Source: Escherichia coli (lineage in GTDB: Bacteria > Pseudomonadota > Gammaproteobacteria > Enterobacterales > Enterobacteriaceae). Taken from it: a stretch of 64,000 nucleotides of DNA. The position numbers were made by a program, and so were the translations under genes. This document shows, piece by piece, positions 61,061-61,116 of this stretch; positions within the stretch are counted from its first letter, which is position 1, and each line of letters begins with the position of its first letter. The notes beneath the pieces were generated by a model, which was given only the letters and a program-made list of their open reading frames with translations, did not search any database and was not told the DNA's origin. The stretch lies in the NCBI RefSeq assembly GCF_051903065.1, contig NZ_CP178438.1; one strand, written 5' to 3'.

Positions 61061-61116
61061 ATTCCCATAAACTCAGATTTACTGCTGCTTCACGCAGGAT
61101 CTGAGTTTATGGGAAT
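61061..61116. promoter_or_regulatory. MelR operator: two 18 bp sites in inverted orientation (melAB promoter)
   Basis: attcccataaactcagat (61061-61078) and its reverse complement atctgagtttatgggaat (61099-61116), 20 bp apart, upstream of melA. Confidence 0.75.

What the first reader, a model, noticed from the sequence alone, without database searches (positions are those of the whole stretch)
61061..61116. Perfect 18 bp inverted repeat pair forming the MelR operator
attcccataaactcagat and its exact reverse complement are separated by 20 bp, about 80-130 bp upstream of melA. This matches the known arrangement of MelR binding sites 1 and 2 with a weak CRP site between them.
Basis: partly seen in the sequence, partly recalled or inferred. 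Interest (0 to 1): 0.3.

Follow-up and report, generated by a model that had tools for sequence, protein, structure and literature searches.

The report
Known MelR binding sites 1 and 2

Summary
ATTCCCATAAACTCAGAT (61061-61078) and its exact reverse complement (61099-61116) are separated by 20 bp. This is the only perfect inverted repeat of 16 nt or more in the 64-kb window; about 1e-4 are expected by chance. It lies in the 282-bp gap between divergent melR (60003-60911, minus strand) and melA (61194-62549, plus strand) of E. coli. The 56-mer is identical to K-12 MG1655, where MelR binding was mapped.

The details in Samarasinghe et al. 2008 (PMC2377442) fit to the base:
- an identical 18-bp consensus at sites 1 and 2, with G at positions 5 and 13;
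- site 2 at -174.5 from the melR start, which is -62.5 from the melAB start;
- CRP1 between the two sites;
- site R, the melR -10 hexamer CATAAT and CRP2 at their predicted places.

In 68 of 78 loci encoding MelR relatives, from many genera, the two arms keep their inverted orientation with a 20-bp (occasionally 21-bp) gap, while the spacer sequence varies freely.

Already known; low interest.

The parts
61061..61078 (-). MelR site 1. It reads as the consensus ATCTGAGTTTATGGGAAT on the minus strand. Centre 61069.5, which is -100.5 from the melAB start.
   Evidence: PMC2377442 says the consensus is found at sites 1 and 2. Conserved at 1.42 bits per column over 72 orthologous loci.
61099..61116 (+). 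MelR site 2 (ATCTGAGTTTATGGGAAT, G5 and G13). Centre 61107.5, which is -62.5 from the melAB start and -174.5 from the melR start.
   Evidence: The -174.5 position and the 237-bp spacing of the two starts come. Conserved at 1.53 bits per column.
61078..61099 (.). CRP1, the weak 22-bp CRP site centred between the two arms (-81.5). Its core ACTGC-N6-ACGCA matches the consensus at 5 of 10 positions, with the key G7 and C16 present.
   Evidence: PMC2377442 places CRP1 between sites 1 and 2 and inactivates it at positions 7 and 16. The spacer is poorly conserved (0.27 bits per column).
61041..61058 (.). MelR site 1' (published centre -120.5, a value from memory). It is a weak MelR-like element whose register and orientation are ambiguous by sequence: the plus-strand reading of 61041-61058 and the minus-strand reading of 61030-61047 score about equally.
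   Evidence: Conserved at 1.01 bits per column. The existence of site 1' is stated in PMC2377442.
61119..61136 (.). MelR site 2' (published centre -42.5, a value from memory). It overlaps the melAB -35 region, is occupied only with melibiose, and is not recognisable with the site 1/2 matrix.
   Evidence: for function. Searches find no matrix hit. Conservation is 0.66 bits per column.
60923..60940 (-). MelR site R. It reads TTCTGATATTCCAGGAAA on the minus strand, matches the consensus at 11 of 18 positions, has G5 and the non-consensus A13, and overlaps the melR start.
   Evidence: Third-best matrix hit within 200 bp either side. G5 and A13 are exactly as described in PMC2377442. Orthologs always show it in the minus orientation.
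60964..60985 (.). CRP2, the CRP site that activates the melR promoter. Core TGCGA-N6-GCACG, centre 60974.5, which is -41.5 from the melR start.
   Evidence: Joint-highest CRP-like core score (7 of 10) in the intergenic region, and the one at the published position. The paper places it 41 bp upstream of the melR start.
60940..60945 (-). melR promoter -10 hexamer CATAAT. The melR transcript start is inferred at 60933 on the minus strand.
   Evidence: The hexamer sequence is given in PMC2377442. It is found at -12..-7 of the inferred start.
61155..61170 (+). melAB core promoter, inferred: TG at -15/-14, CATGAT at -12..-7, and the start at 61170 (237 bp from the melR start).
   Evidence: The 237-bp spacing is and the sequence. 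The hexamer assignment is my inference. The simple consensus scan found no promoter, as expected for an activator-dependent promoter.
60003..60911 (-). melR, which encodes the AraC/XylS-family regulator that binds the sites.
61194..62549 (+). melA (alpha-galactosidase), the first gene of the regulated melAB operon. melB follows and runs off the end of the window.

Best explanation
The two arms are MelR binding sites 1 and 2 of the E. coli melibiose regulatory region. Each 18-bp arm binds one MelR monomer through its two helix-turn-helix motifs, in opposite orientations. MelR occupies both sites with or without melibiose. With melibiose, MelR also fills the weak site 2' over the -35 region. A complex of four MelR molecules (1', 1, 2, 2') then forms, with a CRP dimer recruited to the poor site in the 20-bp spacer, and activates melAB. 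Without melibiose, MelR at sites 2, 1 and 1' cooperates with MelR at site R to repress the divergent melR promoter. Shown here: the sequence, position, identity to K-12, and conservation of the arms and their spacing. Taken from the literature: binding, stoichiometry and mechanism.
For: 1. The repeat is exact and far beyond chance.
2. It lies between melR and melA.
3. The 56-mer is 100% identical to K-12 MG1655 and present in 2065 complete genomes. Over 856 bp the window differs from K-12 at only 6 positions, none in site 1, the spacer, site 2, site 2' or the -10 region.
4. PMC2377442 says sites 1 and 2 carry the consensus 18-mer with G5 and G13; the arm read as ATCTGAGTTTATGGGAAT has exactly that.
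5. Geometry closes from independent anchors. CATAAT at 60940-60945 and the CRP-like site centred at 60974.5 (the paper puts CRP2 at about -41) fix the melR start at 60933. Adding 174.5 gives 61107.5, the exact centre of the right arm.
6. Site R at 60923-60940 has G5 and the non-consensus A13, as published.
7. In 64 of 78 loci with MelR relatives (Escherichia, Salmonella, Citrobacter, Klebsiella, Raoultella, Kluyvera, Pantoea, Serratia, Buttiauxella, Providencia, Photobacterium and others) the inverted pair keeps a 38-bp start-to-start distance, and 4 more have 39 bp. The arms carry 1.4-1.5 bits per column against 0.27 for the spacer.
8. In a divergent E. coli allele the arms are 18/18 and 17/18 conserved while the spacer is 12/20.
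Against: Nothing substantive. The primary footprinting papers (Webster 1989, Caswell 1992, Belyaeva 2000, Wade 2001, Grainger 2003) are not held, so I could not see the printed site sequences. The values -100.5, -81.5, -120.5 and -42.5 are from memory. The CRP site is only a 5 of 10 core match and is poorly conserved. Sites 1' and 2' cannot be placed confidently from sequence alone.
Confidence: 0.97

Rival explanations
1. The repeat acts as a nucleic-acid structure, either an RNA hairpin (terminator, attenuator or small RNA) or an extruded DNA cruciform, rather than as protein binding sites.
For: As single-stranded DNA, 61037-61140 folds to -27.4 kcal/mol, z = -7.8. Across orthologs the arms change together somewhat more than in shuffles (covariation 0.113 against 0.079, 0 of 500 shuffles).
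Against: The element lies upstream of both divergent transcript starts (60933 leftward, 61170 rightward), so no known transcript contains it. There is no T-run and no terminator call. Rfam gives only plant and animal miRNA-hairpin hits at 20-28 bits against gathering scores of 65-135. Only 2 of 72 distinct orthologous elements have fully complementary arms, with a mode of 3 broken positions, and 15.5% of cells are unpaired. A 20-nt loop of free sequence is kept at fixed length, which suits protein spacing and not a hairpin. The correlated changes are equally expected for two sites tracking one protein's specificity, and the tool warns that relatedness inflates this measure.
Confidence: 0.02
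2. The repeat is a palindromic operator for a different regulator, or the terminal inverted repeats of a small mobile element.
For: Perfect inverted repeats flanking a short spacer are also typical of miniature transposable elements.
Against: It is single-copy: a median of one place per genome and two 18-mer hits in the window, both within this element. It is syntenic next to a MelR gene across genera, with melA the divergent neighbour in 58 of 72 loci. Its position fits the published MelR geometry exactly. No target-site duplication is seen in the flanks (CAGGTAAATT / GCTCAACCTG).
Confidence: 0.01

Closest known systems
MelR sites 1 and 2 at the E. coli K-12 melR-melAB regulatory region (Busby laboratory; e.g. 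PMC2377442)
   Same: The sequence is identical to K-12 over the 56-bp element. It has the same flanking genes, the same positions relative to both transcript starts, the same CRP1, CRP2, site R and -10 elements, and G5/G13 as published.
   Different: Nothing within the element. The window (100% identical to an O157:H7 strain over 401 bp) differs from K-12 at 4 intergenic positions: 61015, 61017, 61024 and 61058. The last is the terminal base of site 1'.
AraC binding sites at araC-araBAD (O2, I1, I2 with a CRP site)
   Same: An AraC/XylS-family regulator with two helix-turn-helix motifs per monomer binds sites of about 17-18 bp. The genes for regulator and operon are divergent, CRP is a co-activator, sugar-dependent occupation of the promoter-proximal site switches the operon on, and distant sites give autorepression (parallel drawn in PMC2377442).
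   Different: [quoted passage not shown] At mel the two strong sites are inverted, 38 bp apart centre to centre, four MelR molecules take part, and CRP sits between them and needs MelR to bind.

Membership tests
MelR sites 1 and 2 of the E. coli mel regulatory region | Two identical 18-bp sequences in inverted orientation | tested here: met
   Exact reverse complements at 61061-61078 and 61099-61116. They are the only two matches in the window.
MelR sites 1 and 2 of the E. coli mel regulatory region | The consensus has G at position 5 and G at position 13 (contacted by MelR residues N222 and R273) | tested here: met
   ATCTGAGTTTATGGGAAT has G5 and G13, and the reverse reading does not. Stated in PMC2377442. 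G5 is kept in 143 of 146 orthologous sites and G13 in 129 of 146.
MelR sites 1 and 2 of the E. coli mel regulatory region | Site 2 is centred at -174.5 from the melR start, and the melR start lies 237 bp upstream of the melAB start (hence -62.5) | tested here: met
   The melR start is fixed at 60933 by the -10 hexamer CATAAT (60940-60945) and by CRP2 centred at 60974.5. 60933 + 174.5 = 61107.5, the centre of the right arm.
MelR sites 1 and 2 of the E. coli mel regulatory region | Located in the divergent melR-melA intergenic region | tested here: met
   ORFs, NCBIfam MelR equivalog and alpha-galactosidase, RefSeq annotation.
MelR sites 1 and 2 of the E. coli mel regulatory region | Same sequence as in the strain where the sites were mapped (K-12) | tested here: met
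   56 of 56 identical to MG1655. There are 6 differences in 856 bp, none in the element.
MelR sites 1 and 2 of the E. coli mel regulatory region | A CRP site (CRP1) between site 1 and site 2 | tested here: inconclusive
   The paper states it. By sequence the central register has G7 and C16, but only 5 of 10 core matches (about 7% of random 16-mers reach 5), and conservation across genera is weak.
MelR sites 1 and 2 of the E. coli mel regulatory region | Physical occupation by MelR (DNase I or Fe-BABE footprints, gel shifts) | not testable with these tools
   Published for the identical K-12 sequence.
Functional regulatory site (general) | Conservation of the arms and their spacing, but not the spacer sequence, across species | tested here: met
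   64 loci have 38-bp and 4 have 39-bp spacing, of 78 loci. Arms carry 1.42 and 1.53 bits per column against 0.27 for the spacer.

The most novel reading that the evidence does not exclude
The 20-bp gap between the inverted sites is kept across Enterobacterales, and more weakly in Vibrionaceae (one Photobacterium locus, and a Vibrio locus with a 21-bp gap). The spacer sequence, including the CRP1 core, is barely conserved. The fixed geometry may therefore be imposed by contacts between the two pairs of bound MelR molecules, or by sequence-independent recruitment of CRP, and not by a CRP site as such. On that reading the CRP bridge described for K-12 could be lineage-specific. Separately, a second MelR-type regulator in Citrobacter and Superficieibacter carries the same operator pair without melA, which suggests either an undescribed MelR-controlled locus or cross-talk.
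Probability: 0.25. Interest if true: 0.25.

Novelty: already known. Interest (0 to 1): 0.06.

Why it matters
It matters only as validation. A reader without tools correctly recognised a textbook regulatory element, and the sequence, position and cross-species conservation agree with about 35 years of work on MelR. The element is a useful positive control for scans of this kind. The comparative data add a small point: the perfect identity of the two arms is peculiar to Escherichia, while what is conserved is the motif, the inverted orientation and the 20-bp gap.

Tried and rejected
- Primary footprinting papers: six PMC ids (PMC125794, PMC1138231, PMC146657, PMC1447455, PMC306891, PMC1133192) are not held. 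A search for the numeric coordinates found nothing relevant. The supplement with primer sequences is not held. PMC4308713 and PMC6333337 mention MelR but give no site data.
- Rfam at a permissive threshold returned only spurious miRNA-hairpin hits far below their gathering scores.
- The consensus promoter and terminator scan found nothing. This is uninformative, because both promoters depend on activators.
- The first Python chance test timed out and was rerun.
- The covariation count on the arms was meant to separate 'hairpin' from 'two protein sites'. It cannot, because both predict correlated change.
- Matrix scans could not fix the register or orientation of site 1' and did not detect site 2'.
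- The H12 record (strain AQ15) is a patchwork of gene fragments and was ignored.

Full report
**Observation.** The window reads ATTCCCATAAACTCAGAT at 61061-61078 and ATCTGAGTTTATGGGAAT at 61099-61116. The two are exact reverse complements separated by the 20-bp spacer TTACTGCTGCTTCACGCAGG. A weaker dyad continues outward to 42-nt arms (61037-61078 / 61099-61140, 79% complementary). This is the only perfect inverted repeat of 16 nt or more with a spacer of at most 100 bp in the 64-kb window. The analytic expectation for an 18-nt pair is about 1e-4, and none appeared in 40 Markov shuffles. The 18-mer, allowing 3 mismatches, occurs only at these two places, against 0.04 expected.

**Context.** The element lies in a 282-bp gap between a 302-aa ORF on the minus strand (60003-60911) and a 451-aa ORF on the plus strand (61194-62549). 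These score as the MelR equivalog (NF007693, 636 bits) and alpha-galactosidase (NF011657, 736 bits). A 401-bp stretch around the element is found in 5400 of 5426 complete E. coli genomes, annotated melR | melA, and is 100% identical to an O157:H7 strain. Upstream lie ORFs of 445, 253 and 756 aa; the 756-aa one is annotated adiA (arginine decarboxylase) at the same position in another E. coli strain, and I take the other two to be adiC and adiY from their sizes and the K-12 gene order, which was not tested. melB starts after melA and runs off the window. This is the K-12 gene order.

**Identity with the mapped sequence.** The 56-mer is 100% identical in 2065 complete genomes, including K-12 MG1655. 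Over 856 bp the window differs from MG1655 at six positions: 60699, 60825, 61015, 61017, 61024 and 61058. None is in site 1, the spacer, site 2, site 2' or the core promoter. What was established experimentally for K-12 therefore applies directly.

**Comparison with the literature.** The only primary MelR paper held is Samarasinghe et al. 2008 (PMC2377442). It makes the following statements.
- The melR transcript starts 237 bp upstream of the melAB start, and site 2 is centred at -174.5 from the melR start.
[quoted passage not shown] Site R has G5 and a non-consensus A13, and is bound in the orientation opposite to site 2.
- The melR -10 hexamer is CATAAT. CRP2 lies 41 bp upstream of the melR start. 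CRP1 lies between sites 1 and 2. Each CRP site was inactivated at positions 7 and 16 of its 22 bp.

**Mapping onto the window.**
- CATAAT is at 60940-60945 on the minus strand.
- The CRP-like core at the published position, one of two that reach the top score of 7 of 10 in the intergenic region, is TGCGA-N6-GCACG at 60967-60982, centre 60974.5.
- Both anchors place the melR start at 60933 (-10 at -12..-7, CRP2 at -41.5).
- Site 2 at -174.5 then falls at 61107.5, the exact centre of the right arm. The melAB start is at 61170, so site 2 is at -62.5.
- Read on the plus strand, the right arm has G5 and G13. The reverse reading does not.
- The other copy must be site 1 (centre 61069.5, -100.5), because the consensus occurs only twice.
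- The 22 bp centred between the arms (61078-61099) have G at position 7 and C at position 16, but only 5 of 10 core matches.
- The third-best matrix hit in the region is TTCTGATATTCCAGGAAA at 60923-60940 on the minus strand. It overlaps the melR start, with G5 and A13, exactly as described for site R.

The figures -100.5, -81.5, -120.5 and -42.5 are from my memory of Belyaeva et al. 2000 and Wade et al. 2001. Those papers could not be opened.

**Independent test by conservation.** A scan of one genome per species with the MelR protein gave 80 loci.
- In 64 of the 78 loci that could be analysed, the best inverted pair of MelR-like 18-mers upstream of melR has a start-to-start distance of exactly 38 bp, and in 4 more it is 39 bp. 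The genera include Escherichia, Salmonella, Citrobacter, Klebsiella, Raoultella, Kluyvera, Enterobacter, Pantoea, Serratia, Buttiauxella and Cedecea. The pair is weaker in Providencia, Moellerella, Photobacterium and Vibrio.
- MelA is the divergent neighbour in 58 of 72 loci.
- In an ungapped footprint anchored on the pair, site 1 carries 1.42 bits per column and site 2 carries 1.53. The spacer carries 0.27, site 1' 1.01, site 2' 0.66 and the sequence further upstream 0.36.
- The ortholog consensus is ATCTGAGTTT(T/A)(T/C)GGGAAT.
- Within E. coli, about 1000 genomes have an intergenic allele only 80-90% identical. In one of them the arms are 18/18 and 17/18 identical while the spacer is 12/20.

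Selection therefore acts on each arm, on their inverted orientation and on the 20-bp gap, and not on the spacer sequence.

**Mechanism.** Shown here: the sequence, position and conservation. From the literature: each 18-bp site takes one MelR monomer. MelR occupies sites 2, 1, 1' and R without melibiose, which keeps the system 'poised' and represses melR through a four-molecule complex. Melibiose allows occupation of site 2' over the -35 region, and the activating complex of four MelR molecules plus one CRP dimer forms.

**Rivals.**
- Hairpin or cruciform. The strand would fold well, and the arms co-vary slightly more than in shuffles. Against this, the element lies upstream of both transcript starts and has no T-run. 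Rfam gives only spurious miRNA-hairpin hits. Perfect complementarity is found in only 2 of 72 distinct orthologous elements, with a mode of 3 broken positions. Correlated change is equally expected for two sites that follow one protein, so the covariation test does not discriminate.
- Mobile-element ends or another regulator's palindrome. This is excluded by single-copy occurrence, synteny, and the exact fit to MelR geometry.

**What sequence alone could not settle.** The register and orientation of site 1' remain open: 61041-61058 read on the plus strand and 61030-61047 read on the minus strand score equally. Site 2' has no recognisable match to the site 1/2 matrix, which is consistent with its low affinity. 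CRP1 is only weakly enriched in orthologs: 22 of 74 reach 5 of 10 core matches, against about 7% of background 16-mers, without correction for relatedness.

**Verdict.** The one correction is that this pair is part of a five-site MelR system with two CRP sites. The element is already known in detail, so interest is low.

Noticed in passing
L053, L055, L059-L067 (e.g. L059:1750-2520): Citrobacter species and Superficieibacter carry a second MelR-equivalog gene (78-80% identical; NF007693, 558 bits). It has the same inverted 18-mer pair at 38-bp spacing upstream, but no melA beside it. In L059 the melA-equivalent side holds only an 82-aa ORF (1999-2247, minus strand; rich in LPPGIA repeats), then a hairpin, then a 470-aa Sel1/TPR-like ORF.
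   Followed up: partly
window 60970-61100; L001:1551-1851: About 1000 complete E. coli genomes have a melR-melA intergenic allele only 80-90% identical. The divergence is concentrated between CRP2 and site 1' and in the 20-bp spacer, while sites R, 1, 2, 2' and the core promoter are kept. The pattern looks like an imported or ancient allele.
   Followed up: partly
L001:1845-3401 (E. coli Ecol_656): In this strain melA is followed directly by, and overlaps, yjdF. melB appears to be deleted although the MelR operator is intact.
   Followed up: no
window 61061-61116 compared with orthologs: Perfect identity of the two arms is confined to Escherichia sequences: only 2 of 72 distinct orthologous elements have fully complementary arms. 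Other genera typically differ at 3 positions, mostly the outer two bases and consensus positions 11-12.
   Followed up: yes
window 61058: The window has A where K-12 has T at the last base of the published site 1' position. This is the only difference from K-12 inside any MelR or CRP site.
   Followed up: partly
window 54923-54952: A perfect 14-nt inverted repeat (AGCCAACCTTAAG..CTTAAGGTTGGCT) with a 2-nt loop and T-rich flanks on both strands. It sits between the convergent ends of a 562-aa ORF and the 445-aa ORF that I take to be adiC (not tested), and is probably a bidirectional intrinsic terminator.
   Followed up: partly
L002 (NZ_CP043487.1, strain AQ15): The record holds a patchwork of 100-300-bp fragments of unrelated genes (melR, cadC, pmrB, proP, phnF and others), all annotated as partial pseudogenes. 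It looks like an assembly artefact or an engineered or scrambled region.
   Followed up: no
window 61030-61147: Rfam at a permissive threshold reports plant and animal miRNA precursor families (MIR5185, MIR1882, mir-590) on the repeat at 20-28 bits, against gathering scores of 65-135. These are generic hairpin hits.
   Followed up: yes
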